Below, one piece after another: positions 420 to 33,260 of a DNA stretch of 64,000 nucleotides. Within the stretch, counting starts at the first letter, position 1. Every line of letters begins with the position of its first letter. The stretch lies in contig PS015097.1 of the NCBI GenBank assembly GCA_048213135.1, forward strand, positions 326,678 through 390,677, read 5' to 3'. Position numbers and translations under genes: made by a program. The stretch comes from Reclinomonas americana ATCC 50394. Its lineage: Eukaryota. The notes below the pieces were generated by a model. That model ran no database searches. It was not told the origin of the DNA and was given only the letters and a program-made list of their open reading frames with translations.

Positions 420-1197
420 CTCTCTTCATGCGCAGTTCCACCAACGCCTGCTCGCCCTCCCGATCGATTCTGTGCAGGTTGGCCACGGCCTCCACCACAT
501 CGTCCACTGCGCGCGAGTGCACCTGCATGTCGCCGCACAGCAGCTGTGTGGCGAATCGTTCCAGCAGATCGCCGTCGAGAACTTGTCGCATGTTGGCGTC
601 GACTTCTTCGCTGTTGCCGTTGCTGGTCAGTGAGGGCACGAGGTCGATGAGCAGTTCGTCGACGTGGCCAGTGGAGGAGACTGTGAGGGAGAGTGCAGGA
701 AGAGGGAGGGAGGGAGTGAGTGGGGGAGTGTGAGTGAGTGTGAGAGAGTGAGTGAGTGAATGAATGAGTGAGTATCTGAGAGATACAGAGAGAGAGAGAG
801 AGTGAATGAGTGAGTGAGTGAGTGAGCNNNNNNNNNNNNNNNNNNNNNNNNNNNNNNNNNNNNNNNNNNNNNNNNNNNNNNNNNNNNNNNNNNNNNNNNN
901 NNNNNNNNNNNNNNNNNNNNNNNNNNNNNNNNNNNNNNNNNNNNNNNNNNNNNNNNNNNNNNNNNNNNNNNNNNNNNNNNNNNNNNNNNNNNNNNNNNNN
1001 NNNNNNNNNNNNNNNNNNNNNNNNNNNNNNNNNNNNNNNNNNNNNNNNNNNNNNNNNNNNNNNNNNNNNNNNNNNNNNNNNNNNNNNNNNNNNNNNNNNN
1101 NNNNNNNNNNNNNNNNNNNNNNNNNNNNNNNNNNNNNNNNNNNNNNNNNNNNNNNNNNNNNNNNNNNNNNNNNNNNNNNNNNNAGAGAGAGAGAGAG

Positions 1198-6549: not shown

Positions 6550-7077
6550 NNNNNNNNNNNNNNNNNNNNNNNNNNNNNNNNNNNNNNNNNNNNNNNNNNN
6601 NNNNNNNNNNNNNNNNNNNNNNNNNNNNNNNNNNNNNNNNNNNNNNNNNNNNNNNNNNNNNNNNNNNNNNNNNNNNNNNNNNNNNNNNNNNNNNNNNNNN
6701 NNNNNNNNNNNNNNNNNNNNNNNNNNNNNNNNNNNNNNNNNNNNNNNNNNNNNNNNNNNNNNNNNNNNNNNNNNNNNNNNNNNNNNNNNNNNNNNNNNNN
6801 NNNNNNNNNNNNNNNNNNNNNNNNNNNNNNNNNNNNNNNNNNNNNNNNNNNNNNNNNNNNNNNNNNNNNNNNNNNNNNNNNNNNNNNNNNNNNNNNNNNN
6901 NNNNNNNNNNNNNNNNNNNNNNNNNNNNNNNNNNNNNNNNNNNNNNNNNNNNNNNNNNNNNNNNNNNNNNNNNNNNNNNNNNNNNNNNNNNNNNNNNNNN
7001 NNNNNNNNNNNNNNNNNNNNNNNNNNNNNNNNNNNNNNNNNNNNNNNNNNNNNNNNNNNNNNNNNNNNNNNNNNNNN

Positions 7078-8633: not shown

Positions 8634-9510
8634 GTCGTCGTCGTCGTTCGGTTGGTTGGGTGGTGGTGGTGGTAGTCGTACGTACGACGTACGTACGTAG
8701 TAGGTAGGTAGGTAGGTCGGTTACGTTGGTACGTAGTNNNNNNNNNNNNNNNNNNNNNNNNNNNNNNNNNNNNNNNNNNNNNNNNNNNNNNNNNNNNNNN
8801 NNNNNNNNNNNNNNNNNNNNNNNNNNNNNNNNNNNNNNNNNNNNNNNNNNNNNNNNNNNNNNNNNNNNNNNNNNNNNNNNNNNNNNNNNNNNNNNNNNNN
8901 NNNNNNNNNNNNNNNNNNNNNNNNNNNNNNNNNNNNNNNNNNNNNNNNNNNNNNNNNNNNNNNNNNNNNNNNNNNNNNNNNNNNNNNNNNNNNNNNNNNN
9001 NNNNNNNNNNNNNNNNNNNNNNNNNNNNNNNNNNNNNNNNNNNNNNNNNNNNNNNNNNNNNNNNNNNNNNNNNNNNNNNNNNNNNNNNNNNNNNNNNNNN
9101 NNNNNNNNNNNNNNNNNNNNNNNNNNNNNNNNNNNNNNNNNNNNNNNNNNNNNNNNNNNNNNNNNNNNNNNNNNNNNNNNNNNNNNNNNNNNNNNNNNNN
9201 NNNNNNNNNNNNNNNNNNNNNNNNNNNNNNNNNNNNNNNNNNNNNNNNNNNNNNNNNNNNNNNNNNNNNNNNNNNNNNNNNNNNNNNNNNNNNNNNNNNN
9301 NNNNNNNNNNNNNNNNNNNNNNNNNNNNNNNNNNNNNNNNNNNNNNNNNNNNNNNNNNNNNNNNNNNNNNNNNNNNNNNNNNNNNNNNNNNNNNNNNNNN
9401 NNNNNNNNNNNNNNNNNNNNNNNNNNNNNNNNNNNNNNNNNNNNNNNNNNNNNNNNNNNNNNNNCGGTACGTACGTACGTCGTCGTCGTACGTCGTCGTC
9501 GTACGTACGT

Positions 9511-12649: not shown

Positions 12650-13778
12650 TCACTTCAACACTTCGGGTACGCGGATCTCGCCGACGCTGTACGTCTGCGC
12701 GGTGCCTCCCAGTAGCACGCGATCGCCGTCCAGACGGAGACGAAGGAACGAATAGCCGCGACGCCGCGAGGACTGGCAGGCGCGAACTTCCGAGCGCCCG
12801 AGTCGTGCGGCCCAGAACGGCGCAAGGGTGCAGTGCACCGATCCAGTGGCGGGGTCCTCGGGTATGCCTGGTGGGATTGTGTCAGCATGTAACAAACCGC
12901 ATGAGCAGCAGAGGCGAACCTATCGAGGGAACAAAGAACCGCGACACAAAGTCAACTCCTGCACGAAGAGCAAGCATTTTAGCGCAGGTTCGCGTGCAGA
13001 ACCAGCAGGCTTCCACTCACCCTTGTCGGCGGCCAGTGCCTCCGAGGCCGGGGCGGTGACAACCACTCCAAATGGACGACCCTCCAGAGCGAGAATGGCC
13101 TCCATGTTGGGTTGCAGGCGCTCCAGTTGCTCCTGCGAGCGGACGAGCACCAGCACGTCACGAGCGCCACCAAACACCTGACAGCCTTCCGTGTCATCCC
13201 CAAGGCCCACAGCGGCTAGTGCAGGAGCTGCTTCTGCCGCTGGACTTGGTTCGGAGCGCGGCGGCATCGCAGGAAAGTCCATCCACAACAGGCTGTCGTC
13301 GTCACGTGACACCGTCTGCACGTGCATGTGGTGAGTTCCGCATGCTTCCCCGCTCTCCACCGTGGTCCGCTGCTCACCAGTACGCCACTGTGCCGTGTCT
13401 GGAAGCGCACTTGCGGCCGCGTGTACCCCAGCTCGGTCCACAGTACATGCGCCGCTGCCTGCGTTGCGTGACCGCACAGATTGACCTCGGCGATCGGCGT
13501 CATCCAACGCAAATGGAAGTCCACATCGTCGCGGCCGACAGCCGGTACGATGAACGCGGTCATGGGCATGCTGTTCTCCTCGGCAATGGCCTGCAGAGTG
13601 GCATCGGAGATCGGAAACTCACCTGTGCATGCACGTGCACACTCAGTGGATTGCTTTGGTAATCACAGTCATGACAGTTACCATCGGTGGCAGTCGGTTG
13701 CAGCATACTCACAGCGGCCGGGTTGCCACGAAAGACCTCATCGGCAAAGGCGTCGACAATGACAGACGGCAGGCGCAT
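12650..13778 (-). CDS. PhzF/PBLD family isomerase, paralogue B (altered SET motif)
   Basis: VDAFA...GNPAAV, EVNLCGHAT, DFVSRFF, EDPATGSVHC; five exons splice in frame. Confidence 0.9.
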
Positions 13779-13856: not shown

Positions 13857-15013
13857 TCAGCTGACCTCACGTACGCGGATCTCGCCGACGCTGTACGTTT
13901 GTGCGGTGCCTCCCAGTAGCACGCGATCGCCCTCCAGACGAAGTCGGAGGAACGCATGGCCTCGACGCCGCGAGTACTGGCAGGCGCGCACTTCTGGGCG
14001 CCCGAGTCGTGCGGCCCAGTATGGTGCCAGTGTGCAGTGCACCGAGCCGGTGACAGGGTCCTCGGGAACACCTGTGGATCATATCAGCAAGAGCTGTTTG
14101 TCACTGTTGGAGTACAGGAAGAACAACACACCCATGGCCGGGGCAAAGAACCGCGACACAAAGTCACTTCCTGCACACAACAATAGAGAGTAGCGTTCAG
14201 CGCAGGTGCCTCATGCAGAATCAGCACGCTTCCACGAACCCTTGTCGGCGGCCAGTGCCTCCGAAGCAGGGGCGGTGACAACCACCGCAAAGGGACGGCC
14301 GTCGAGAGCGAGAATGGCCTCCATGTTGGGTTGCAGGTGCTCCAGCTGCTCCTGCGAGCGGACGACCACCAGCACGTCACGAGCGCCACCAAACACCTGA
14401 CAGCCTTCGGTGTCGTCGCCCAGGCCCACAGCTGCCAACACGGGCGCGGCCTCGGCCGCCGGACTGGGCTCGGAACGTGCGGGCACTGCGGGGAAGTCCA
14501 TCCACAGCAGGCGGTCGTCATCCTCACCACCACGTGTCACCGTCTGCATGCAATTTTGCAAGGTGGTGAGCTCCGCATGCTTCTTCCGCGCTCTCCACTT
14601 GTCTGCTGCTCACCAGCACGCCACTACATCGCGTCTGGAAGCGCACTTGCTGCTTCGCGTAGTTGAACTCGGTCCACAGTGCATGCGCAGCCGCCAGAGT
14701 GGCATGACCGCACAGATTGACCTCGGCAGTCGGCGTCATCCAGCGCAAGTGATAATCAATGTCGTCGCGGCCGACAGCCGGCACGAGGAACGACGTCTCC
14801 GACAAGTTGTTCTCCTCGGCAATGGCCTGCAGAGTGGCATCGGAGACGGGATACTCGCCTGTGCGCGCACGCAATGAATGACTGACTGCATCCGCCGCGA
14901 TGGTCATCATGGTTACCGTCGGTGGCAGTCGGCTGCAGTACACTCACGGCGGCCGGGTTGCCACGGAAGACCTCATCGGCAAAGGCGTCGACAATCACGG
15001 AGGGCAGGCGCAT
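13857..15013 (-). CDS. PhzF/PBLD family isomerase, paralogue A
   Basis: VDAFA...GNPAAV, NLSETSF, EVNLCGHATLA, DFVSRFFAP, EDPVTGSVHC; same intron positions as paralogue B. Confidence 0.92.
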
Positions 15014-15254: not shown

Positions 15255-19006
<3,752 letters not shown>

Positions 19007-19314
19007 TTTCCGATGCGCGAGTGAATGAAGAGAGCGCACGCACGCACGCATGCACACACACAGAGATGCACACACACAAACACACACTCGCTCTTATGCA
19101 CAAAAGAGTGGCAAGCAGCGTTGCACTCACTCACCATTCGCGACACTCAAATTCACGCTCGACAAAGCACACACTCGCACGCACACACACGCAAAGACGC
19201 AGAGAGAAAGCGAGCGCACACAAGAGAGCACAAGCAACCGCGGAACAACGCAATGTGGCGATGATGAAAAACGCGATGTCGACCGAGTGACGGAGTGGAC
19301 GGTCGATTCAGCCA

Positions 19315-19751
19315 ATGTCACAAGGTGCGTGCTCACGTTCTCTCCACGTGTGTGTGCCTCTTGCTGTCTCTCACACACGTGCAGAGTTGTTTCCTGTGCC
19401 GCCTGAGCTGCTGGCATTCAGCGATCCATCGGTGAGCGCGCTCTTCTCTCGCTTGCTGTGTTGTCAACTCGCCCGCGCTCACGTGCAGCACACAGTGGAT
19501 CCCGCACCCGTTTCCCACAGACTATGGACTCGTGAGACCGGTTCGCACACACATACACGCACTCTTCTCTCTCTCCCTGACGACCATCACAGTTGCGGAT
19601 TGTGCGCGTGCGACCGCCGACACCGCCAATGGAGTACGCGCCCGCCGACTTGCAGTCCTCCGGCGGCGTCTGCTACATCAACGAGCGCCAGTACGCACGC
19701 ATCATTGCGCGTCGCAACTATCGCCCTCCACCACGATCTGCACGACGATAA
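19315..19751 (+). CDS. Small (about 83 aa) protein carrying an NF-YA/HAP2-like subunit-association helix but no DNA-binding subdomain
   Basis: Exons 19315-19324, 19385-19431, 19496-19531, 19593-19751 with GT..AG introns of 60-64 nt give MSQELFPVPPELLAFSDPSWIPHPFPTDYGLLRIVRVRPPTPPMEYAPADLQSSGGVCYINERQYARIIARRNYRPPPRSARR*. Not in the ORF track. Confidence 0.62.
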
Positions 19752-19754
19752 TGT

Positions 19755-19992
19755 TCACTCGAGGAGGAAGAGTCGCGAGGAGATGTCGGCGACGATCCAG
19801 TCGATGCCGTCGGCGAGGCCGTCGCCCGTGACGGCACTGCACGGCACAATGTGCCAATGTCTGCTGCCACTGACCGCGCTCTCTTGCAAGCCGAGTGCCT
19901 CGGCGATCTCGTCGCTCGACAGCGCGCCACTCAGGTCTTGCTTGTTGGCAAAGATGAGCAGGGAGGCGCCGGCGAGTTTCTGCGCAAGGAGG

Positions 19993-20031
<39 letters not shown>

Positions 20032-21156
20032 TGAGTAAACATGCGGGGGCAGAAGGAACTGGCACAACACAAGAGCGAGAGGGACAAGGACACTGGCACA
20101 TCACTCACAAGCAAGCGAGGGTGCAACGAAGAGAGATTGACATCGAGAGAGAAGTAAGAGAGGGACAAGGACACTGGTACATCACAGAGTGGCACTCACA
20201 AGAGAGTAAGAGAGTGAGGGTACACCGAAGAGGGAAGGATCCTGATACTACCACGCCTTGGGTTGACGCGAGAGAAGAAGCACAAGGACGCTGGCAATCC
20301 TCTTACGAGCGAGGGCACAACGAAGAGAGAGACAAGGATCCTGATGCTGCCACGCCTTGGGTTGACGCGAGAGAAGAAGCACAAGGACGCTGGCAATCCT
20401 CTTACGAGCGAGGGTACAACGAAGAGGGAAGGAGCCTGATGCTACCACGCCTTGGGTTGACGCGAGAGAAGAAGCACTAAGACGCTGGCAGTCCTCTTGC
20501 AAGCGAGGGTGCAACAAAGAGAGACAAGGATCCTGATACTTCCACGCCTTCCGCTGAACACGGGAGAGAGACGCACCTCCTCCTTGAGCAGATTGTGCAG
20601 CTCCTCGCGACAATCCTGCAGGCGCATACGATCGGCCGAGTCGACGACCCACACCAGACCATCAGTCTGCTCAAAGTAGTTGCGCCAGTATGAGCGGATA
20701 GTCTGCTGACCGCCCACATCCCACACATTCAGCTTGAAGCTGTGCACCAAGCAAGTCAGTGCGTGTGCGATCATTGAAGACAACTGACGCGCGCACGCGC
20801 ACGCAAGATCGTACTTTTTGTATTCCAGTGTCTGGTGGTGGCAAAAGGTGAGTGAGTACGTGAGTCAATGAGTGTTTACAACAAAAGAAGAGTGGAGGGG
20901 AGAGTGGATACCTTGATGTTGAAGCCGAGTGTGGGTGAGATGGTGTCAATGGGCTCGCCGTTGAACTTCTTCACACATGTTGTCTTGCCTGCGTTGTCCA
21001 GACCACTGCCGACATAACACACAGAGAGTGTGAGAGATGAGAGGAGGGGTGTTGCGCTGGTGCGCGCGAAAACACAATGATCGTACAGAACAGCATGAGC
21101 AGGCGCATTTCCTTTTCTTTTTGCTTGAGCTTCTTGAGGATGGTGAGGAGTCCCAT
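19755..21156 (-). CDS. ARL2: ADP-ribosylation factor-like GTPase 2
   Basis: [60 protein letters not shown]; includes a 17-nt micro-exon (TLEYKN). Confidence 0.97.
20215..20550. repeat. Intronic minisatellite in ARL2, about 3.3 copies of a 95-99 bp unit
   Basis: Unit GGATCCTGAT..CCACGCCTTGGGTTGACGCGAGAGAAGAAGCAC.AGGACGCTGGCA.TCCTCTT..AGCGAGGG starts at 20237, 20336, 20431 and (partial) 20528. Confidence 0.9.
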
Positions 21157-21322
21157 GGTTGCTATACACACACGCACTCGCACACTGAAGACAGACGGCA
21201 ACTGAAGAACGATCGGCGGGACATTGCATCATTGCAGGACTTGCCACCATCGTGCCTTTTTCCATCGTTGCTTTCATTACACACACATAGTTTCACCTGT
21301 TTTTTTCTTTTGCGCCTTCTTT

Positions 21323-23378
21323 TCACAATCCATCCTCGCGATACTCCTCCACCAAACGTCGCAGGCGATGTACGCTTCCTGGTCTTTGCTTGGGCACAGG
21401 AGCGTCGGCGACAGTCGCCAGCGGTGGAGTGGGCTTGCGTTGTGGTGAGCGGGAGGGACGACGGGTCGAGTGTGGTGGAGGTGGCGTGCCTGGCGGCTTG
21501 GGAGCGGACGCCGAGGCACCGGCACCGTAGATGGTCGAGGGCGGCGATTGTGGCGGTGAGGGTGACTCGGCCACTCGATCGTCGGGCACTGGCGGCCGTG
21601 TGGCACGGGCGAGTGGGGGAGCCACCGCGGCGACTGCATCTGAGCGTTGTCGCAGGAGGTGAGTGGAAAGAGCCGGCATAAAAAATGAAACAACACAAGA
21701 AAACACCGACCTATCCGTCGATTGCTGACGGTTGGTAGCCTCTCCACAAACTCCCGCTGCTGCGCCTCCTCCCACTTGCTCTGTCGTACGCACAAGGATC
21801 AGCAGAATGTTTCGGCTGTGATGACGTGATGCAACGGCGCACACCTGCAACGTGGACTCGAGTTCACGCATCTCCTGCAGTGTTGGCTCGGCGTCCTCAT
21901 CGGCCTCGACCCTATCCCTGAACTCAATCTCCTTCTCGATGCACTCTTGCACAAACTCAATGTCCTCCATCAGCGTTCTCCTCTCGTCCTCAAAAGCCAC
22001 CCGCAGCGTGTTGACAGCCTGCTGGATCTTGTCGACAGTGAGGTGGTCGCGCAACTGTGTGAGGGGAGGAGAGATCGTCAGGCACGCTTTGTGTTGCGTC
22101 GACGATTCACTCGCGCAGTGACGCACATCGGCCAGTGTTTCCCGCTGTGAGTGACTGGTGGCGGCGCGCGGTGTGTCACGTTCCGTGCCTGTGCGACACA
22201 AACAAAGAATGGAAGTGAGCAAGTAGTGCACGGCAGGCATGCTGCGTGTCGGCTCCGGGACTCACCGCTCAGTGCGGGCGCCGAATCCGGACGGGCGGAC
22301 CGTGGTCTCGCGGTGGAGGGGCGTGAGGGGGGTGATTTGCTGGGTGTCTCGTCGCCCAACACGAATTCCACTGCGCGGAAAGAGAGGGAAAGTCAGGAAC
22401 AGGAGAAGGGGGAAAGGGCGAGGAAGGGGAAGGGGAAGGGAGGGAAGGGAGGAAAGAGGGACAACGAGCTGGAAGGATGATGGAAGCAAGAGGAGGAGAA
22501 CAGGGGGAAGAGGGAGAAGGGTGGAGGGAGGCAGGAAACTGGATTAAAGATGAGCACGTGGCGACTGAGCGAAGCAGAGAGTGCGCGGAGAGAGAGAGAG
22601 AGTAAAGAAAGAATAGAGGGTGAGTGCAACGGAAACAGAGAATGCAAGAGGGACCAAGAGAGAGATAGGAACGGGAGCAAGACGGAGACTGAGTGTGAAG
22701 AACGAGGTGCGAGAAACGTGCATAAAAGAGAAGGGACACGCAGGGAAAAGGTGACTGAGTGTGCAGCAGAAGGTGAGAGCATCGTGTATGCATGAGTGAG
22801 AGAGGTACCCAGAAGAAGGTGAGACAGAGAGAAGCGACGTTGGAGACAGCGAGCAGCAGCTGGAGAAAGCGACTTGTAGAATACGAAACAGACAGCCTGC
22901 TGGCGTGGCGTCTCTGGTCTCAACAGCTGCTCCACCGGCTTTCCCTTCTGCGCTCGCGACAATCACAGAGTGAGTGCGCCAGACGCAAGTGCGGGAGGAA
23001 CAGGGCGGGTGGATGCACCTTTTGAAAGTTCTGCACCAAAATCTTGATCTCGTGTCGCAGGTACTGCTGCACCGGACCACGTGTGTTCAGGAACGACCGA
23101 GTGTTGCGTTTCCTTTCTCTGCGCACGTGCGAGGATCGTGAGTCGAGAGAAGCAGAGAGATAATCAGAGTGACGCAAACCGTTGCAAGTCAATCTCCTCG
23201 CGAAAGCCCGCCAGGATGTCCAGCAGCGCCGTGAGTTCCTCGAATAGTGACTGCGAATGGCGGGAGAATGAGAGGGAGAGAGAAGGAAGAGACAAGAGGT
23301 TATTTGTGATCTTACTCCATGTTGTCACTCTTCGCACAATCACGCACGCATGTCTTTCTACTGCTGCTGTTGTGACGC

Positions 23379-23429
<51 letters not shown>

Positions 23430-23532
23430 CTCAATCGCTCTCATCTGTGATCTTTCAGCTCTCTGCTCATCTTCTTCTCTCATCCTTCTGTTTATTCTCA
23501 CGCCATACTCATACTTCGGAGAGCTGGAGATG

Positions 23533-23563
<31 letters not shown>

Positions 23564-23853
23564 CGCAGGAGGAAGAGAAGAGAGTGCTTGTGAGATGTAA
23601 AGAGGACATGAGTGCGATTGAGAGAGAGAGAGCAAAGGAGGCGTCCGTAGCGTCTCTCTACTTTCTCCTTCTATTCTCCCACTCTCTTTCTCTCTCTCTC
23701 TCTCACAGACACATTCTGGCGTGTCAAATAGACAGAACAGGAAGAGGAAGTGGATGTGTGACGAATGATAAAGAACGCGATTGAGAGAGAGAGAGAGCAA
23801 AGGAGTCGTGCGTGTGTGTGTGCGTCTCTCTCCCACCCTTCTCCTTCTATTCT

Positions 23854-23884
<31 letters not shown>

Positions 23885-23991
23885 ATTCTCACGTTCAGAG
23901 AGAGAAAGAGAGCAGCAAGATGAAAAGCGAGATGTGAAGGATAAAGAGGACACGAGTGCGATAGAGAGAAGGCAGAGAAGGCGTGTCTGCC

Positions 23992-24023
<32 letters not shown>

Positions 24024-24351
24024 TCTCTCTCTCTCTCCCTCTCTCTCACACCCTTCTCCTCCCCTCTCCTCCCTCCCCCTTCTCCCTCTCCCCACCACTC
24101 ACCTCATTCTCCGCCAACAACTTCCCGCCAATCGCCCTCCGCACCTCCGCCCTCTCCGACACCGGCACATCACTCTCCAGCACATTCCACAGCAGCTCAT
24201 GCGCATCGCGAAACGCCAACAGCGGCACCACATCCTCCAACACCTCACTCGACGACGACACAGACGACCGCCCAGACACAACCTCACTGCCTCCTTTTCC
24301 AACAGCAGCGTCACCAGACCACGACGAGATGCGCATGAGACTCGTCGCCAT
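21323..24351 (-). CDS. CCDC24-like coiled-coil protein
   Basis: LLWNVLESDVPVSERAEVRRAIG..ENESLFEELTALLDIL; LRHEIKILVQN; HLTVDKIQQAVNTLRVAFEDERRTLMEDIEFVQECIE..EPTLQEMRELESTL resemble CCDC24 conserved blocks. Confidence 0.7.
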
Positions 24352-24491
24352 CTCTCTCAACGATCAAAGTGACTGGACAATGCAACTGCCGCGAGCCTCG
24401 TCTGTCCCTCATCGACCGTCCTTCGTTGCATTGTGTTTCGTTGCTGCGCCGCCTTCCCTTTGTTGTTGTTGTTGCGATCCGCCGCCCAAAA

Positions 24492-27073
24492 ATGGATGTT
24501 GATATGGATGATCGCTCACCGTGCGGAGCGGCTGCGGAGTGCTCGCGGGTGGATCTTGCGAAACGAGCGTCGTCTTGCGCACGAGGTACTGTGCGTGTGT
24601 GTGCGCTCTCTCCTTGTTGCTCTCCCCTCGTGCTTGTGATCATGCGCGTGCATCGTTGTGTTGCTTTCGTTGTTGGTAATGATGAATGCTGTTGTTTCTC
24701 CCGATGCGCACTGGCTCTCTCCTGCTGCCCTCTCGTTCTTCCTTCTCTGCGACGTGTGATCACACACGCGATTCTTTCTTTGCTCTCTTCGTCGTCCGAG
24801 TGCGTGAGTGTCGTGTGTTGGTGCTGATGTACATCTGCACCTCGCCGCACAGACGTGACCATGATTGAGAGCGCGGCGCTGAGCGAGCCAATGGCCTCGT
24901 TGCACGAGAGCGCCAACAGCTCTGTGTACACGGCGCTGGTGCAGGCGAGTGCGCTGCGGAGAGCTGATGATGACGATGATGATGATTGTGCGACAGTGGC
25001 GGTGGTGGTGAAGCGTGTGCGCATCACCGATCAGGATTCGCTGAGGCGGTATCGTGCGGAGGCTGCGCTGCTGTCGGGTTGCGACCATCCGGGAATCATT
25101 CGGCCACTGGCGGTTGGTGTTCTCGGAAGATTTTTTCCCTCGTCAATCGTTGACTGCTGCTGATTGCCTGGTGATTGCGCAGATTTGCTCGTCGCCGCCG
25201 ATGTATGCGTTGGTGTTGCCGCGTGCGGAGCACGGCAGCCTGTTTGCGGTGCTCCATGACCCGGTCTCACCGCCGCTCTCGTTCCCACTGGCGCTGGCGC
25301 TGGCCGTCGATGTGGCGCGCGCTTTGGCGTATCTGCATGACACAGTGGGCGTGCTTCATCGCGACATCAAGCCCGCCAACGTTGCGTCTCCCATTTCTCG
25401 TCGTGCTTCCCATCTCCCCTCTCATTGCCTGTTTTCCGTGGTCAGATTCTGGTGGATCACGAGTGGCGCGCGATGCTGACCGATTTCGATTGGGCCGAGC
25501 GCATCGACAAGGTGGCGGCGGCGGAGGAGGAGCGTAAAGCCGCGCTGCGCAACGGTGGAACGGCGGCCAAGCGTGCGGCGTGTTCACGGCCCAGTGGTGG
25601 CTTCCACAAGGCCTTCATGATTGGCACACTGCCGTACATGGCGCCCGAGTTGCTGCGAAAGGAGCTGTACACGCCGGCGGCCGACGTCTACAGCGCCGGG
25701 ATTACGTTGAACGAGTTGGTGACGGGCTGCATTCCGTACTCTGATGTGCGCTCCACCACGGTGCAAATGCACACCGTGCTGGAGGCCAACTACAGCGAGG
25801 CCTCGCTGACGGCTGCCATTTGTGCGGAGGGTGTGCGACCACGACTGCCCGACGCCTCCTCGGGGTGCCCCGACGAGTTTCGCGACTTGGTGTGTCGCTG
25901 CTGGTCGGCCGACAAGAGCAAGCGACCATTGGCGCGACAGCTGGTGGACGAGCTCGAATCCATGGCGCGCCAGCACGGCATCGAGTTGTCCACTGTCGGC
26001 CGTGCGCAGTATGCCGCCGAATGTGCTCTCATGGCGCACGCTCCCGCCACACCTGCCTCAGTGCCGCTGCCACTCGACGCAGTTGCCGACGTGGTGGTGC
26101 GCATGCGTTGTAAACTTCCACCGAACAAGTGTGCTTTCTGGTGCTGTGCTCATATCAATTTTTGTGTCGGCAGATGCGACGAAGCGACGACGATGATGAT
26201 GACAGCCGGCTGCTGTCATTAGATGAGTGTGTTGCACGCGTGCAACACTCCAGTTCGCCCCTCTACAGACCACTGGTGCACGGAGGTGCGTGCGACACGG
26301 CAGGTCGCCGTGGCGTCGACTGCATGGAGGACCGCAATGTGGTGGCCAACAACTTTGACGGTGCACCACACGTGCACATGTTTGGCGTGTTTGACGGGCA
26401 CGGTGGTGCCGAGGCTGCCACACATGCTTCCGTGCATTTGACTCGTGTCGTGGGAACGTTGCTTCGTGCGGGATTGCAGCCTGCCGATGCACTGCGCCGT
26501 GCGTTTGTGGAAGTGGACGCGCGGTTCTTGGACTGGGCATCGCTGTCGTCAAACAACGCCGGTTGCACGGCCTTGCTGACGCTGGTGATGGGCAACGTGC
26601 TGTACGTGGCCAATGCGGGCGACTGCCGCGCAGTGTTGAGTCGTGCTGGACAGCCGGTGGTGCTCACCACGGATCACGTGGCGGAGAACACACACGAGCG
26701 TGCGCGAGTGGAGAGCGCCGGCGGTTGCGTGTCTCGCACGGCGGACGGAAAGCTGCGCGTCGACGGAATCATTCAGGTGACCCGGGCGCTCGGCGACCGC
26801 CAACTCAAATCACGCGGTCTCTCGGCCGAACCCGAAATCACCACCGTGGAGCTCACGGAGAACGACGAGTTTTTGGTGCTGGCCACTGACGGAGTGTGGG
26901 ACGTGCTGTCGCCGGAGGTGGCGTTGCACCTCGTGCGAAGCACCGTGAAGCACGCCGACTACGGACCGAAGCGCATCGTGGCCGAGTGTTTCACACGTGG
27001 CAGCACCGACAACATCACCGCACTGGTGGTCTATTTGCAGGGCGAAAGGGGCTTTGAGGTGATGTCCGAGTGA
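24492..27073 (+). CDS. Protein kinase-PP2C phosphatase fusion protein
   Basis: Kinase: VVVK, HRDIKPAN, DFD, PSGGFHKAFMIGTLPYMAPE, DVYSAG. PP2C: MEDR, FDGHGG, ANAGDCR, VTRALGD, LATDGVWD, GSTDN. Confidence 0.92.
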
Positions 27074-27450
27074 AGAATTTATTGCCCTACATACGCGCAC
27101 TCTACGGCGATGGGAGATCACAGTGGATTGCCAACATCAATGGTGTGCGATTTGCGCAGCATTTCTATCACCGATGGCAACGATGCAAGGTGCTCATCGC
27201 TGCGATATTTTCACTCGGCAAGCCTCGACGCAGTCGTTGGCTGTGTTTGCAAACAGCTCGGGAGACCCACGCATCCGCATGGTGATCACGACTATTTCTG
27301 CCCGTTTCCGACCGTTTCAGAATTCACATACATTGCTGCGCGGTGCGGCGCGCGCGAAATCATTATCAAAAAGTACGACCGTTTCTGACCGTTTCAGTGT
27401 TCTCTCACAATTTGCATTGATTTGCGAGCGCAAACAACCTGCTTCTTTCC

Positions 27451-30069
27451 ATGAGACAATCTGTTCGTGTGCTTTCCCTCGTCGCTTTCCTGCTGGCTAT
27501 CTCGCTCCTGGCGGTGCTTGCCCATGGTACGCAGCATTGTGAGGCGCTGCGCTCCTTGTCGCCTTTTACGTTTCTCACCAATTTCCCCTCTTTCCTCCTC
27601 AACAGCTCAAGTAGCACGCCTGCAGGAGTCGCGCGACAGCGAGGACGACTTTGACCACGTGGTGGCGGAGAACGTTGACGAACAAGAATTCGAGCAAGAG
27701 TACGAGCAAGAGCAGGAGGAGGAGGAGGAGGAGGAGAATGATGAGCAATTCGCTAGCTACGACTCGTCAGTGTGCAAAGCCGCTGTGTGGAAGTACTTTG
27801 ACGAGTTGCGTCGCCCCTTTCGCGTCTTCTTCCACACGCATCCTCGTTCCCAACACCGATTTTCTGCAGGGCACGCACGGTTGAGAATGCCACAGACGTG
27901 CTGAGCAAGTGCGAGCTGCCGATTGACCCTGCTGATACCTGCAAGGCTGCTTGGGTGTCATACTTCCTGTTGCGTCCTCACATCTTCCCCGACACTTCCC
28001 CGCCTTCTTATTAATCGCCTCCGTTACTCCCCCTATTTGCAGGAAGGTGCCGGCCGATCCCGTGTGGACGGACAAGGTTCGCAGCATGTGCAAGGGCTGC
28101 ACGGTCGCCATCATCGAGTACTTTGCGTGAGTACCACGAAGGAAAAAACTCTCTCTTTCTCTTCTCGCGTTCTCAGTCTCATTCCTGTTTTATTTTGCTC
28201 AACAGCAAGCCGAGCGATGCGCTGGCTGCCAAGGCCAACTCCGCGTGCAAGACCAACATTCCCTTCACTCCGGCAGCTGCCTGCCGCACCGCGGTGTTCA
28301 AATATGTCAGCTCGTTGCGTCCTGAGCTGTTTCCCGCACTCTTTCTCTTGAGGCTGACATGTGCATGCACACCGCAGAAACTTTGACTCCATCTGGCGCG
28401 ACATGGCCATCTCTACGTGCTACGCGCCCCCCAAGGCCAACAAGTGCGCCGAAGCTGTCGATCGTTGGTTCTTGTGCGTTGATAGTCACTTTCTTTCGAT
28501 GGCACACCCTTCCGATGCTGATCGTGAAACCACAGGGGCGGCACGAACTCGTTCGATGTGGCTGTTGTGGATCCCGCCAAGTTGCCTAGCACCTGGAAGA
28601 CTGGTCCCATGGCCGACGTCCACAAAGCTTTCGAGTCTGTGAGTAATATTTTTTGCTGCTTCGCCTTCGATCCTTTCACACTGCATGTGCTCCAATTTTA
28701 TTGATCCTGGCTCTTTTCTTTGGCATCGTTTCGTGCCGTTACGCTTTCTTCTGTCCATGTCACTCATCAGTACGCGCAATTCGCAGGGCGGCAAAGTGTG
28801 CCACAACTTCAACCTGAACAGCCTCGAGAACCTGTCTCCGTCCACGCTGTGCCCGTACATCACTGACAACAACAACGTTGCCACTCGCTTCATTGTGGAT
28901 TTCCACCTCACCGAGGCCACCAACGTCAAGTTCCGCTGGGGCACTGATACCAACGGTCGTGGTCGAGTTGCGTAGGCATGCATGCACTTTGTTGTTGGCC
29001 TATCACTTTTTGACTCACATGATTGGGCACAGTTGGAGGTCGACGGAGCCTCGCCGCTGCTCCTGGTCACGCAGACGTGGTATAACGGAGACATGGCCGC
29101 CGGTGCCGTGTGGAACGGCGATCTGTCCGCCGGCGACCACCGGTGAGTGACGCCTCTGTGTTGCGCGTCTTTCCATACGTACCTTCTCCTTCTCTAATTA
29201 ATCTCTATGCCCCGACAAAAGCCTGGTGGCCATTGCATTTGATGACTGGTGAGTGACTTCAGAAAACGCAAAAAAACCATGATGAGTATCCCCCGTCCCT
29301 GATTCTCACTCCTTTTTCTCATCCCCGCAGCTGCCTCAAGGGCACTCTTGCAGGCCTGCAGGTCAACCTCAACAACAAGGGATGGGTCAACGCTGCCACC
29401 TTGCGCAAGGCCGCCCACATCACCTCGTGCGTCGTCAATCCAGTGTCTGTTGGAAATAGAACATTTCCTCATTCCACTGCTTCAACAGGCTGTCTCGTCA
29501 GGAGTACTTCTGCGAGGCTGAAGGTGACCGCGTCATCTCGTGCCCTCGCGGATACTTCATTGAGGTTCTGTACGCCAACTATGGTCGAACTCGAACTGCC
29601 ACTCCCACTTCTGGACTGTGCCCGTATCACGATGCGTCCGCTCTTGCGAAGACCGACTGCATCGCTCCCAAGTCGCAGAAGCTCATTGAGGATCGCTGCA
29701 ACGGCAAGAGCAGCTGTGTCATCTGGGCTCAGAACTCCTTCTTTGGCGACCCCTGCGTCGGGTACGTACAGTAGCGCTCTCGATCCTCACTCGAGAAGAA
29801 ACAGAGAGCTGATCGTGACTGTCCTTACCCAGAACCTACAAGTACGTCGACCTGCAGTACAAGTGCACTCGTCAAGCCACCATCCCCGAGTGCTGGAAGC
29901 TGCCAATCAACCCCGAACCGACGTGCGAAGCCGCCTGGAATAAGTTGTTTGCAGGGTGAGTGGAGTTGTACGTGGTTTATGATTGTGTGTGTGTGTGTGT
30001 GCCTGTAGACTTACCAAAGCGTACAAACGAGCAGAAAGGAGGACCTCAATGTTAAAATGCATTATGTGA
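27451..30069 (+). CDS. Secreted protein: signal peptide, Cys helical repeats, PA14-like beta domain, SUEL/rhamnose-binding (Gal_Lectin) domain
   Basis: MRQSVRVLSLVAFLLAISLLAVLAH signal; SUEL motifs ISCPRG..YANYGR..C..RCNGKSSC..FGDPCVGTYKY..YKC. The last exon is uncertain (alternative stop near 29958). Confidence 0.8.
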
Positions 30070-30644
30070 GGGAGAATTGCAAGCCTGTCAAGTGTGCCTC
30101 TCAGTGGCATGACAAGGAGTAGAGTTCAATCGAGTGACTGAATCGATGTTGACGTGTACGAGTTCCACTCTGCCTCTTTGTCGCAATCTGAAATGTAGAC
30201 ATGAGTGTCCGTCTGATGCAACTGCAACGCGCTGCTGCTGTCATCATAACACTCCGCTTACCGAGTATCTTCATGGGCACTACCAATCTCGACGACAACT
30301 GCAGGGGTTTCTGTGTTTTCAACAAATCGAGAAGTGCAATCGCATCAATTCACATCTTCGGCGCTTTCATGCTCACTCACGCATGTGCTTGAAGCTAAGT
30401 CTGGTGGCCCTCCGCTCGTGTGCATTAAGAGACTTGATTCATTTCCATCTTACGTGGACTCCCCACCGCGCAAAACAACACGTTACCAGCCACCATAACG
30501 AGAAACACAGAGTACACATACACACACACACACACACGCGGGAACACACGGAGGGCCGGGGGCCTTGCTTGACTTGTAATAGGTAGATTCTGGCGCCAAG
30601 CACACCATTCCCCCCTCCGTTGCACACACCAGTGCGCGCCGTGG

Positions 30645-33260
30645 TTATTTGAGAAGATTCATGAGAAGTACCATATCTGCAATCGTCATCAACGGGAGAA
30701 ACATTCAGAGGCGAGCGCGAGAGATGACATATAGCAGCAAACAATCGAGAGCTCACCATGCCACCGTGTGTTGTCGTCCAACCGAGTGCGTGCACGGACC
30801 ACTTGCCACACGCGACCATGTTGCTTCAGCTTGATGTCCAGCTTGCCATTCACGTACTTGAGCACTGCATATACCACGAGGAAATGAGTACAAACGAATC
30901 GGCAGTGCACATACACAACAGAGCAAACCTTCGCGGCGTGAGGGTTTGCGCATTTGCGGCAACAGCGGCATGCCATTGTCTACTTCGTTGCCATGCCGAC
31001 CCTTCTTGCCGACCTTGGAGCAGCGGAAACGGCTGGCCACGTCCGACGGCAGCTGTCGTACAAAGCGCTGCTGGATAATCATCGCCGCCACGTTCACCAG
31101 CTCGAGTTCGTCGGGAGTCAGATCGGCCTCGGTGACGGTGTTCTCTGTCGCTGGTCCAGCCGCGTCACCGTCGTCCATGTCGTCGTCGCTGTCGCCCGCA
31201 GCGGCCTTTGCCGCCTTCTTCTTTCCCCGACCGGCGCCGGCGCCAGCACCCTTACGCGCACCGCCCTTGGGCGGCGACGACAGCGACACGGACTCCGGCA
31301 TTGGCACGTCGAGGTCGCAAACCGGTGACGACAGCTCCGCCGCCGTTGCCGCCACTGCCGCAGCCATGCCGGCGGCGGCGGCTGGCGACACCATATGAGA
31401 AGTGGGCGTGGTCACTCCAGTGGTGCTCGACGGAGTGGAGGGCGAGTTGAGGCCGCCATTGGATTTGCGCTTTGGCGGCACCGGTGGCGACTGCAACTGG
31501 AAGCCCTTTGGCAGCTGGAACATGCTCGGATCGGGGTATACCACGCCAACCACGGCTGTGGTGGCTTGTTGCGGGCGACCGCCCCCTCCCGCTGCCGCGG
31601 CAGCTCCTAATGATGCCGACACAGCTTGTTGTTGTTGTTGAAGATGATGCTGATACTGCTGATGCTGTTGCGCCACGGGTAATGAGGGATCGAGCTTCAT
31701 CACGGGCACACCGGCGGCGCCGAGCGGCGGGAACGACGACATCATGTCGCCAAACGGCGCCACACGCGGCATCGCCGACGCTGGTGGACGCACGCTGTCC
31801 CCACCTTCCGCACCTCCTGGCGCCGACGGTGGCGATGGTCCAGCCAACGAAATCACCGGCGCAGTGATCGAGGTGGTGGTTGCGCCATGGCCATTGGCCA
31901 TCGGTGCCGCGGAAGCTGATGCTGCAGTGGCGGCGGCAGCGGCGGCGGCGGCCGCTGCTCCTCCAAGCGACATGAGCTTTCCAGCAGCAGCAGCAGCCGC
32001 AGCCGACGAACTCGGCATCAGCAGCGAGGAATTCGGAGTGCCGCCGCTCATCATCGTTGTCCACGGCAGCATGTAGCCACCAAGAGCCTGTGTCGGGGTG
32101 ATGGGTCCGTCGAGTTGTTGCGAGCGTTGCAGTTCCTGTGGGGCGGAAGAGAGAGAGAGAAAGAGAGTGAGAAGAACAGGTGAGACAATGGCGACGAAAC
32201 GTGCTGCAACCGACCATCTCAAAGTTGCCAGCTGGACTCGGCAGTGCGCCGAATGCGCCAACCGGCGATTGCGGGAGCGGGAAGCCACCAGTGTAGTACG
32301 GCTGTGTGAGAGAAGGAGAGAAGGTGAGCACCGAAATGCGATCCGTTGCGAAAACTAGACAAGAATCCGACAACATGACATCCACAAGAGCCGAGAGCTT
32401 CGACACACGCACCCACACGAAGTGAACACACAGGACAGAGTGCAACAGCAGTGAAAAGACGCGTGCAAGCCAACACTTTGAGTGCCAACCGAAATAGTGT
32501 CCGATACGCAACATGAGGCCACGGAAAGGAGGACGCGGGCGAGAATGGCGTGGAGCCCTGCTGCAGAAAACAAGCCAAGTCAGCACTCTCCTACCCCACT
32601 CGCACCTGACTCCGCCACACGCACAACAAACCAGCAGATTGCCCATGGGTGTCCACGGTGTCGGCACCGAAATGTTATTCCGACGAACCCCAGGATTGAG
32701 CGCCGGATTCTGCAGCACACGCACACATCAGCTCCTCTGCAGGTCGATAGAAGAAGAGCATGCGTACACACGATGCACAAAACACACGCGCGCGGCTGGA
32801 AACACTCTCTCCAGTATCTTGCACCTCTCTCTCTCTCATCTCTCCTCTCTTCTCTCCTCTCTCTTCTCGCAGCGCACATACCTCTGGCGACACATCAACC
32901 GGCAGTCCCGACTGCGAATCATACACGCGCTTGCTGCGTGGTGTTCCATTGCCACCTCCTCCGACAGCAGAACCACCGACGTCGTCGCCATAGACCGACG
33001 ATCCCGCACCTCCGCCGACGGGAGATGAGGCCGCCGAGGAGACACCCGCCACGCTGCCTACTTGCATCTTGCCGTCGTCCACTGCGTGACTGTCGTCGGC
33101 TGCTCCCACCGCTTGCTGGAGCTGTGCGAGGAGGTGCAAATGAGAAAATTGCAATGAAATGGAGTGCGGAGAAGAAGGGAGGCGCACCCGCGGTGAAATG
33201 GGCGGTGACGTCAGCGTTCCCTTGGCTTGATCGTCAATGGCTGCCTCACAGAGCGCCTGT
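30645..33260 (-). CDS. Low-complexity (Ala/Gln/Pro-rich) probable nuclear protein with a basic helical C-terminal domain; 5' end uncertain
   Basis: Large exon at about 30930-32135 with polyA/polyQ tracts, PPKRK and GRGKKK; C-terminal exons give RREVLKYVNGKLDIKLKQHGRVWQVVRARTRLDDNTRWHDMVLLMNLLK*. Confidence 0.6.

What the first reader, a model, noticed from the sequence alone, without database searches (positions are those of the whole stretch)
19315..19751. Hidden NF-YA-like microprotein gene head-to-head with MCM2
Seen: a four-exon 83-aa ORF missed by the ORF track, ending CYINERQYARIIARRNYRPPPRSARR*. Known: the NF-YA/HAP2 A1 helix (YVNAKQYHRILKRR) binds the NF-YB/YC dimer, and DNA binding needs the following A2 block (YLHESRH..RG.GGRF), which is absent here. 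There is no room for it, because ARL2's stop codon is 3 bp away. Inference: a dominant-negative competitor or alternative adaptor for NF-YB/YC, sharing a ~310-bp divergent promoter with a cell-cycle gene. Caveat: exon 3 needs the second of two nearby acceptors (19495, not 19488); an internal ATG would still give a 40-aa peptide containing the motif.
Basis: partly seen in the sequence, partly recalled or inferred. Interest (0 to 1): 0.78.

Follow-up and report, generated by a model that had tools for sequence, protein, structure and literature searches.

The report
Small gene with half an NF-YA domain
Between the MCM2 and ARL2 genes of a jakobid-like protist lies what looks like a real four-exon mini-gene that keeps only the partner-binding helix of the CCAAT-box factor NF-YA and lacks its DNA-reading half, so it may act as a natural blocker of that factor, but whether it is expressed or binds anything is still untested.

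Summary
Exons 19315-19324, 19385-19431, 19496-19531 and 19593-19751 (+) join through GT-AG introns of 60, 64 and 61 nt into an 83-codon ORF. Its stop lies 3 bp from the ARL2 stop and its ATG 308 bp from the MCM2 ATG.

The last exon matches only positions 3-20 of 56 of Pfam CBFB_NFYA (19.7 bits, below the 27-bit cut-off). It keeps 8 of 8 main NF-YB/NF-YC contact residues listed in PMC12101057. No linker, A2 helix or GxGGRF is present, nor within 11 kb downstream.

The three introns resemble the 12 MCM2 introns in donor class, CTNAY branch motif and length. A start codon plus three such introns in frame arose in 1 of 2000 shuffles. In the real window it occurs otherwise only in two true multi-exon genes.

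Against a working gene: no RNA run was listed, no homologue was found, the last 15 codons look non-coding, and the genome is not held, so a full-length NF-YA could not be sought.

Verdict: probably a real A1-only NF-YA derivative (about 0.45 functional competitor or adaptor, 0.25 recent relic). Binding and dominant-negative action are inference. It is a new variant of a known kind.

The parts
19007..19314 (.). 308-bp divergent spacer between the MCM2 ATG (minus strand) and the candidate ATG (plus strand). It is CA-rich and carries one CCAAT at 19312-19316 that overlaps the candidate ATG.
   Evidence: the CCAAT was read directly
19315..19324 (+). Exon 1, coding part (ATG plus 7 nt)
19325..19384 (+). 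Intron 1, 60 nt, GTGCGT...CAG, with CTCAC starting 15 nt before the 3' end
19385..19431 (+). Exon 2 (47 nt)
19432..19495 (+). Intron 2, 64 nt, GTGAGC...CAG, with CTCAC at -18. An alternative CAG at 19486-19488 would shift the frame.
19496..19531 (+). Exon 3 (36 nt)
19532..19592 (+). Intron 3, 61 nt, GTGAGA...CAG, with CTGAC at -16
19593..19751 (+). Exon 4: 52 codons plus TAA, stored as P0001
19629..19703 (+). A 25-codon core from the internal ATG with coding-like codon use. GC3 is 24 of 25 by my own count of the sequence; one search gives 0.84 over the first 37 codons of exon 4. Log-likelihood ratio is +13.8 bits.
19674..19724 (+). A1-like helix segment, residues 28-44 of P0001. It matches Pfam CBFB_NFYA profile positions 3-20 and carries the eight NF-YB/NF-YC contact positions. 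AlphaFold2 on the single sequence gives a helix at residues 31-41.
19704..19748 (+). 15-codon Arg/Pro-rich tail with non-coding-like codon use (GC3 0.25, log-likelihood ratio -11.5). It stands where the end of A1, the linker and A2 would be.
18720..19006 (-). MCM2 exon 1, the head-to-head neighbour
19755..19979 (-). ARL2 last exon including the stop codon, the tail-to-tail neighbour

Best explanation
This is a genuine small spliced gene on the plus strand. It has four coding exons and encodes 83 aa, or a 40-aa product if the internal ATG at 19629 is used.

The gene derives from an NF-YA/HAP2-type gene but retains only the A1 helix, the part that docks onto the acidic groove of the NF-YB/NF-YC histone-fold dimer. 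It has no A1-A2 linker, no A2 helix and no GxGGRF loop, so it cannot read CCAAT.

The most likely action is that the protein occupies the NF-YA site on the NF-YB/NF-YC dimer, or on a related H2A/H2B-like pair. It would then either compete with a full-length NF-YA or tether its own 56-residue N-terminal part to the dimer.

- **Shown:** the ORF, genome-typical splice signals, the A1 likeness with all main contact positions kept, the absence of A2, and the gene geometry.
- **Inferred:** transcription, translation, binding, competition, and any link to MCM2 regulation.
For: 1. **A1 likeness.** PF02045 is the only Pfam family hit, covering profile positions 3-20 of 56. The three nearest ESM-Atlas clusters are all NF-YA (score 0.89, 188 of 256 shared features), and 10 of the 10 best family-bearing hits share that family or clan.
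2. **Contact residues.** The A1 contacts listed in PMC12101057 (passages) are V238, N239, K241, Q242, R245, R249, R250 and R253. At the same spacing the candidate has I, N, R, Q, R, R, R, R, so 8 of 8 are kept: 6 identical and 2 conservative. The contact-plus-core pattern is expected 2.6e-9 times in this window.
3. **Introns.** All 3 candidate introns share the features of the 12 MCM2 introns: donors GTGAG or GTGCG, length 58-86 nt, CTNAY at -15 to -38, and CAG or TAG acceptors.
4. **Shuffle tests.** At least 3 such intron units within 280 nt occurred in 15 of 1000 shuffles. An ATG plus 3 such introns in frame with the core occurred in 1 of 2000 shuffles.
5. **Test on the real window.** 7 of 3690 anchors show this signature. 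Two are the candidate, 3 lie in MCM2, and 2 lie in a plus-strand multi-exon gene with a SUEL-lectin domain.
6. **Codon use.** The 25-codon core scores +13.8 bits. That is in the top 1.4% of all six-frame windows and within the MCM2 range of 16.2 +/- 5.9.
7. **Room for a gene.** The genome is compact. The CCDC24 stop lies 166 nt from the ARL2 ATG, whereas the ARL2 stop lies 748 nt from the MCM2 ATG.
8. **Precedent.** A2 or GxGGRF mutants still trimerise and act as dominant negatives (Mantovani 1994, as cited in PMC12101057; passages).
Against: - No expression evidence is available.
- No homologue was found. phmmer found 0 hits among 1.84 billion representatives. Word-based searches for near and for longer proteins found 0. 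The metagenome scan found 0. None of 30 ARL2-flanking metagenome loci carries an A1 motif or an adjacent MCM2; these relatives are distant, with at most 72% ARL2 identity.
- phmmer against PDB found 0 hits at E<=10.
- The Pfam score of 19.7 is below the 27-bit cut-off. A match of the same strength that I take to be spurious occurred among the 136 plus-strand ORFs downstream.
- The last 15 codons have GC3 0.25 and a log-likelihood ratio of -11.5, lower than any MCM2 15-codon window. This suggests a recently acquired, unoptimised end.
- Exons 1-3 score -2.9 over 31 codons. That is above the background of about -0.53 per codon but below MCM2.
- The helix is cut by PPP right after the R253 position, so the last third of a canonical A1 and the K261 and R266 contacts are missing.
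- With stop codons 3 bp apart, each 3' UTR must overlap the other gene's coding exon.
- The genome is not held, so it is unknown whether a full-length NF-YA or NF-YB/NF-YC exist to compete for.
Confidence: 0.45

Rival explanations
1. This is a recent relic. A full NF-YA gene was cut just after A1 by a rearrangement that brought ARL2 alongside. The 5' exons, introns and A1 are still intact only because too little time has passed. The product, if made at all, has no selected function.
For: Codon use drops sharply at 19704, from +13.8 bits over the 25-codon core to -11.5 over the 15-codon tail, with GC3 falling to 0.25. That is what read-through into formerly non-coding DNA would look like. No trace of a linker or A2 follows. 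No orthologue with the same truncated form was found.
Against: The ORF, all three donor, branch and acceptor sets, and 8 of 8 contact residues are intact. The genome is compact, with a 166-nt spacer next door, so 440 nt of dead gene should be short-lived. If this was the only NF-YA, its loss would disable CCAAT reading.
Confidence: 0.25
2. The gene and its A1-type helix are real, but the partner is not NF-YB/NF-YC, or the role is not competition. It might dock on another H2A/H2B-like pair such as NC2 alpha/beta or the Pol-epsilon Dpb3/Dpb4 pair. Alternatively, this lineage may lack a canonical NF-YA and this is all that remains in use.
For: PMC12101057 (passages) raises NC2 and POLE3/4 as conceivable partners for divergent NF-YA copies. 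The helix is shorter than a canonical A1. The gene sits head-to-head with a replication gene.
Against: All eight contacts kept are those described for NF-YB/NF-YC. No data of any kind exist on other partners.
Confidence: 0.1
3. The gene model is incomplete. A linker and A2 exon exist but were not joined, because of an assembly error between 19704 and 19755, a very long or nested intron, or a split gene. On this reading the locus is an ordinary NF-YA.
For: The window has six runs of N and the genome is not held, so the rest of the assembly cannot be checked. The tail's odd codon use would fit a breakpoint.
Against: No N lies near the locus. ARL2's C-terminus and stop are complete. None of the 136 plus-strand ORFs between 19752 and 31000 hits CBFB_NFYA at E<=0.05. 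Motif scans of all six frames of the window found no convincing A2. The 12 MCM2 introns are 58-86 nt, and no strict donor lies in exon 4.
Confidence: 0.08
4. There is no gene. The region is only the ARL2 3' UTR and the MCM2 promoter, and the ORF, its splice sites and the motif are coincidences picked out of a very large scan.
For: The Pfam score is sub-threshold, and an equally strong hit that I take to be spurious exists nearby. PDB phmmer finds nothing. The finding was selected post hoc.
Against: The motif expectation is 2.6e-9 per window and 4e-6 per 100 Mb. The independent splice and ORF signature occurred in 1 of 2000 shuffles. In the real window it is otherwise confined to two true multi-exon genes. 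The codon bias lies in the same frame as the motif.
Confidence: 0.07

Closest known systems
NF-YA / HAP2 / HapB (Pfam PF02045 CBFB_NFYA), the sequence-specific subunit of the CCAAT-binding trimer
   Same: It has an A1-type helix with the eight main NF-YB/NF-YC contact positions at canonical spacing. The nearest protein-language-model neighbours are NF-YA clusters.
   Different: Only profile positions 3-20 of 56 are present. There is no end of A1, no linker, no A2 and no GxGGRF. The score is below Pfam's cut-off. The protein has 83 residues in all, and I did not look for a Q-rich activation region.
Engineered dominant-negative NF-YA (A2/GxGGRF mutants such as YAm29)
   Same: The logic is the same: trimerisation surface kept, DNA reading lost, and the HFD dimer therefore sequestered (PMC12101057 passages; search listing).
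   Different: Those are full-length proteins with point mutations in A2. Here A2 is wholly absent, the gene is natural, and its activity is untested.
NF-YAr retrogenes of mammals (PMC12101057)
   Same: These are natural NF-YA copies with a degraded DNA-binding part. Their authors discuss them as possible natural dominant negatives (passages).
   Different: NF-YAr are intronless retrocopies that keep the activation domain and an altered A2, and several A1 contacts are changed. The present gene has three introns, keeps all eight A1 contacts and has no A2 at all.
microProteins (miPs), for example the miP1a/b B-box proteins that act on CONSTANS, and the miPFinder candidates
   Same: It is a small, single-interaction-domain protein related to a larger transcription factor. 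miPFinder lists an NF-YA-family candidate in C. elegans (PMC5381583, one passage).
   Different: The larger relative in the same genome has not been seen. The C. elegans candidate is only a computational listing, and its supplementary tables were not read, so its architecture is unknown to me.

Membership tests
NF-YA / HAP2 (PF02045 CBFB_NFYA) | Score at or above Pfam's gathering cut-off (27 bits) | tested here: not met
   19.7 bits, E 0.0013, profile positions 3-20 of 56
NF-YA / HAP2 (PF02045 CBFB_NFYA) | A1 helix carrying the NF-YB/NF-YC contact residues V238, N239, K241, Q242, R245, R249, R250 and R253 | tested here: met
   The candidate has I, N, R, Q, R, R, R, R at the same spacing, so 8 of 8 are kept, 6 of them identical (residue list from PMC12101057). 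AlphaFold2 predicts a helix over residues 31-41 of P0001. The minor contacts K261 and R266 have no counterpart.
NF-YA / HAP2 (PF02045 CBFB_NFYA) | A1-A2 linker, A2 helix and GxGGRF loop, which recognise CCAAT | tested here: not met
   The ORF stops 8 residues after the R253 position. No A2-like motif was found in the window. None of the 136 downstream plus-strand ORFs hits the family.
NF-YA / HAP2 (PF02045 CBFB_NFYA) | Trimer formation with NF-YB/NF-YC | not testable with these tools
   No NF-YB/NF-YC sequence of this or any eukaryote was available under the complex tool's input rules, and the genome is not held. No complex job was run.
microProtein (miP) class | Small size with a single protein-interaction domain | tested here: met
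   83 aa (or 40 aa), with the A1 segment as the only recognisable element
microProtein (miP) class | A larger multi-domain relative encoded in the same genome that it can interfere with | not testable with these tools
   The whole genome is not held. There is no second A1 motif in the 64-kb window.
microProtein (miP) class | Expressed and translated | not testable with these tools
   No RNA run was listed, so no reads could be laid.

The most novel reading that the evidence does not exclude
A free-living jakobid-like flagellate encodes a stand-alone A1-helix microprotein as a natural, gene-encoded inhibitor or re-router of the NF-YB/NF-YC histone-fold dimer. It is transcribed divergently from the MCM2 promoter, so CCAAT-dependent transcription would be damped or redirected in step with replication licensing. 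That would be the first natural A1-only NF-Y antagonist. It would also show that microprotein-type regulation of transcription factors exists in a protist lineage far from plants and animals.
Probability: 0.15. Interest if true: 0.75.

Novelty: new variant of a known kind. Interest (0 to 1): 0.5.

Why it matters
NF-Y is among the most conserved eukaryotic promoter factors. Its dominant-negative forms have so far been laboratory constructs, and natural ones are only suspected, as with the mammalian NF-YAr retrogenes (PMC12101057).

A natural gene that keeps exactly the dimer-docking helix and nothing else would provide:
- a minimal, evolution-tested NF-YB/NF-YC binder;
- a test case for microprotein regulation outside plants and animals;
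- a handle on how NF-Y works in Discoba, where little is known.

It is also a practical warning. Sub-100-codon, multi-exon genes in compact protist genomes are missed by ORF tracks and probably by annotation.

If it proves to be a relic, the interest is modest: a dated snapshot of how a transcription-factor gene is cut by rearrangement.

Tried and rejected
- **RNA evidence.** The look-up of sequencing runs on 18500-20000 listed no RNA holder, so read laying could not be used.
- **Homologue searches with the 52-aa exon-4 product.** All were blank: word-based search for near lengths and for longer proteins (26 candidates, none at E<=10), phmmer over 1.84 billion representatives, metagenome contigs (598 pattern matches, none confirmed), and PDB phmmer. 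The window's own proteins do not seem to be in the protein collection: the best MCM2 hit was 77% identical over the query ORF and 66% over the full length. These blanks therefore say little.
- **Synteny.** 30 ARL2-bearing metagenome loci (at most 72% identity) have no A1 motif, no MCM2 neighbour and no match to the candidate better than E 0.39.
- **A2 search.** Regular-expression scans of all six frames gave only chance-looking hits, for example 43840-43854 in a frame that overlaps a longer ORF, 24 kb away. Pfam on 136 plus-strand ORFs from 19752 to 31000 gave no CBFB_NFYA hit. A non-consensus GT at 19709 joined to the CAG at 19798-19800 (read by eye) only enters the antisense frame of ARL2, with no A2-like motif. 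I rejected that model.
- **Codon log-likelihood ratio for the whole model.** The score is trained on MCM2 and over-fits it. Other real ORFs score -0.2 to +0.3 per codon, so the -0.075 per codon for the full candidate does not decide anything.
- **Rfam.** No RNA family lies in 19000-19800. The only hit in 18000-21500 is a sub-threshold mir-622 match inside ARL2.
- **Structure.** AlphaFold2 on the single sequence gives only a short helix (mean pLDDT 68). It is too small for a meaningful fold search, so none was run.
- **Complex prediction.** Not run. No admissible NF-YB/NF-YC sequence was at hand.
- **CCAAT boxes.** Only one lies in the spacer (19312-19316) and one in exon 4 (19626-19630), which is about the number chance would give. 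I rejected them as evidence.

Full report
**What is in the sequence**

The window is eukaryotic, with about 58% G+C and short introns. On the minus strand lie:
- MCM2, with its ATG at 19006. Pfam finds MCM2_N, MCM_N, MCM_OB, MCM, MCM_lid and WH_MCM2 in successive ORFs.
- An Arf-family gene whose last exon is 19755-19979. It is ARL2: the four best PDB matches are ARL2 at 74 bits, against 52 bits for ARL3, and they run to the end of the chain.

Between them lies 748 bp (19007-19754). That is 83 codons and a TAA. The introns are 60, 64 and 61 nt, all GT...AG. The stop lies 3 bp from the ARL2 stop, and the ATG lies 308 bp from the MCM2 ATG. Using the acceptor at 19488 shifts the frame. An internal ATG at 19629 would give 40 residues. 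Every sequence statement in the finding is therefore correct.

**Is the NF-YA likeness real?**

The exon-4 product (P0001, 52 aa) hits one Pfam family, CBFB_NFYA. The hit has E 0.0013 and 19.7 bits over residues 27-44, matching profile positions 3-20 of 56. That is the A1 part only, and it is below the 27-bit cut-off.

This number alone is weak. Among the 136 plus-strand ORFs downstream, most of which are unlikely to be genes, one scored the same (DUF6931, 19.7 bits, E 0.00098). I take that hit to be spurious. phmmer against PDB also found nothing at E<=10.

Three other results carry the claim:
- **Language-model neighbours.** The three nearest ESM-Atlas clusters are all NF-YA (best 0.89, with 188 of 256 shared features), and 10 of the 10 best family-bearing hits share that family or clan. 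This uses the same sequence information as the Pfam hit, so it is a lead and not an independent test.
- **Contact residues.** PMC12101057 (passages read) lists the A1 residues that contact NF-YB/NF-YC as V238, N239, K241, Q242, R245, R249, R250 and R253, with K261 as a minor contact and R266 as a further one. At exactly that spacing the candidate has I, N, R, Q, R, R, R, R. So 8 of 8 are kept, 6 identical and 2 conservative. The paper itself calls V to I conservative. The positions in between vary.
- **Chance expectation.** Using this window's own six-frame residue frequencies, the contact-only pattern is expected 4.7e-4 times per window. The contact-plus-core pattern is expected 2.6e-9 times per window and 4e-6 per 100 Mb. 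One match is observed.

AlphaFold2 on the single sequence makes residues 31-41 a helix, with a block pLDDT of about 84. I conclude that the segment derives from an NF-YA-type A1 helix.

**Is A2 really absent?**

The ORF ends 8 residues after the R253 position, after a PPP. Motif scans of all six frames found no convincing A2 or GxGGRF block. None of the 136 plus-strand ORFs between 19752 and 31000 hits CBFB_NFYA at E<=0.05. No strict donor lies inside exon 4. ARL2's end is complete, so there is indeed no room for A2.

**Is it a gene?**

No RNA run was listed and the genome is not held. I therefore used the neighbours as a yardstick.

- **Introns.** Spliced alignment of a jakobid MCM2 (P0006) to the window defined 12 MCM2 introns of 58-86 nt. 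Their donors are GTGAG, GTGCG, GTTGCG, GTTGAG, GTGTG or GTTTCG. Eleven acceptors are CAG and one is TAG. All 12 of 12 have a CTNAY motif starting 15-38 nt before the 3' end. The three candidate introns have donors GTGCG, GTGAG and GTGAG, CAG acceptors, lengths of 60-64 nt, and CTCAC, CTCAC and CTGAC at -15, -18 and -16. For intron 2 the motif would sit at only -11 from the 19488 acceptor, outside the MCM2 range.
- **Density of intron-like units.** Complete units occur about once per kb per strand in the window. At least 3 within 280 nt arose in 15 of 1000 dinucleotide shuffles of the spacer.
- **Full arrangement.** An ATG followed by three such introns, stop-free and in frame with the A1 core, arose in 1 of 2000 shuffles. 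At least 2 introns arose in 9 of 2000, and at least 1 in 72 of 2000.
- **Same test on real sequence.** It was applied at 3690 anchors across both strands of the window. Seven anchors reach three introns: 2 are the candidate, 3 lie in MCM2 and 2 lie at 28569 and 28662. The last two sit in a plus-strand series of eight evenly spaced intron-like units between 27969 and 30034. That series includes an exon with a SUEL-lectin domain (E 3.5e-15). I take it to be a real multi-exon gene.
- **Codon use.** The evidence is mixed. With a table trained on MCM2, the 25 codons from the internal ATG through the first half of the A1 motif score +13.8 bits. That is in the top 1.4% of all six-frame 25-codon windows and inside the MCM2 range of 16.2 +/- 5.9. 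The last 15 codons score -11.5 with GC3 0.25, lower than any MCM2 window. Exons 1-3 score -2.9 over 31 codons. The table over-fits MCM2, since other real ORFs score only -0.2 to +0.3 per codon against a background of about -0.53. Only the contrast between core and tail is therefore informative.
- **Room in the genome.** The locus is compact. The CCDC24-family gene stops 166 nt before the ARL2 ATG, so a 748-nt spacer is unusually long unless it holds something.

**What organism?**

The reconstructed MCM2 is 66% identical over 820 residues to that of the jakobid Seculamonas ecuadoriensis. It is at most 55% identical to any of the other 14 hits printed, out of 120 homologues compared. The window therefore comes from a jakobid-like protist.

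It is not an intron-poor one like Andalucia godoyi, where only 12% of 864 genes studied have introns. In that genome overlapping untranslated ends of neighbouring genes, and spacers of 44-691 nt, were reported (PMC7050145, passages). This makes a tail-to-tail overlap of 3' UTRs less odd, although 3 bp is extreme.

**How it most likely works**

Passages in PMC5222873, PMC6652802 and PMC12101057 establish three points:
- The A1 helix docks NF-YA on the NF-YB/NF-YC histone-fold dimer.
- A2 and GxGGRF read CCAAT in the minor groove.
- Mutations in A2 or GxGGRF leave trimerisation intact but abolish DNA binding, and give dominant-negative proteins.

A protein with the A1 contacts and nothing after them should therefore sit on the dimer and block NF-YA, or bring its own 56-residue N-terminal part to the dimer. 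This step is inference. The helix is shortened by the PPP, and the K261 and R266 contacts are missing, so affinity may be lower. No NF-YB/NF-YC sequence was available for a complex prediction.

The main rival is a recent truncation of a full NF-YA gene. The abrupt loss of coding-like codon use at 19704 fits that. The intact ORF, intact splice signals and contacts, and the compact genome argue against long-term decay.

**Comparison and novelty**

The candidate fails membership of PF02045 on score and on the A2 half, but it meets the A1 criterion. It works like the engineered A2-mutant dominant negatives and fits the microProtein concept.

My searches (listings only, apart from the papers named above) showed no natural A1-only NF-YA. 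The nearest cases are:
- the mammalian NF-YAr retrogenes, whose authors ask whether they are natural dominant negatives (PMC12101057);
- an NF-YA-family microProtein candidate in C. elegans, listed by miPFinder (PMC5381583, one passage; supplements not read).

I rate the finding a new variant of a known kind, with interest 0.5. The sequence evidence for a real A1-only gene is good. Expression, conservation and binding are all open.

Noticed in passing
window 19992-20029 and 20212-20550: The last ARL2 intron carries a (GA)19 run and a 95-nt unit repeated 3.5 times in tandem at 88% match. At roughly 600 nt it is far longer than the 58-86 nt MCM2 introns.
   Followed up: partly
window 12923-13662 and 14087-14943 (minus strand): Two tandem genes of the PhzF/PhzC phenazine-biosynthesis-like family lie just downstream of MCM2.
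   Followed up: no
window 21326-22261 (minus strand): A CCDC24-family gene (Pfam E 6.8e-12) stops only 166 nt before the ARL2 ATG at 21156, which shows how compact this locus is.
   Followed up: partly
window 27969-30034 (plus strand): A series of eight evenly spaced intron-like units of 62-82 nt marks a multi-exon gene. One of its exons encodes a SUEL-type galactose/rhamnose-binding lectin domain (E 3.5e-15). The upstream exons have no Pfam match.
   Followed up: partly
window 25045-27070 (plus strand): Protein-kinase domain pieces (25045-26219) are followed directly by a complete PP2C phosphatase domain (26114-27070, E 1.2e-58). This may be one kinase-PP2C fusion gene or two abutting genes.
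   Followed up: no
window 21034-21678 (plus strand): An ORF antisense to the CCDC24 gene gives a Pfam hit (DUF6931, 19.7 bits, E 0.00098) of the same strength as the NF-YA hit. I take it to be spurious. It is a useful calibration of what sub-threshold hits mean in this G+C-rich six-frame translation.
   Followed up: yes
window 43840-43854 (plus strand): A stretch loosely resembling the NF-YA A2/GRF block appears in a 205-aa ORF that overlaps a longer 524-aa ORF in another frame, 24 kb from the finding. I judged it to be chance.
   Followed up: partly
window 15255-15599 (minus strand): The C-terminal part of my MCM2 model still reads through what looks like one more unspliced intron, a run of low-complexity residues before the final conserved block. 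MCM2 therefore probably has 13 introns.
   Followed up: no
window 828-1183, 1966-1985, 4378-4724, 6550-7077, 8738-9464, 55832-56244: There are six runs of N totalling 2391 bases. They also explain the apparent low-GC bins in the composition profile.
   Followed up: yes
window 19253-19290 (plus strand): Several ATGs and a short upstream ORF ending at the TGA at 19288-19290 lie just before the candidate ATG. If the transcript starts upstream of them, they would act as uORFs (read).
   Followed up: no
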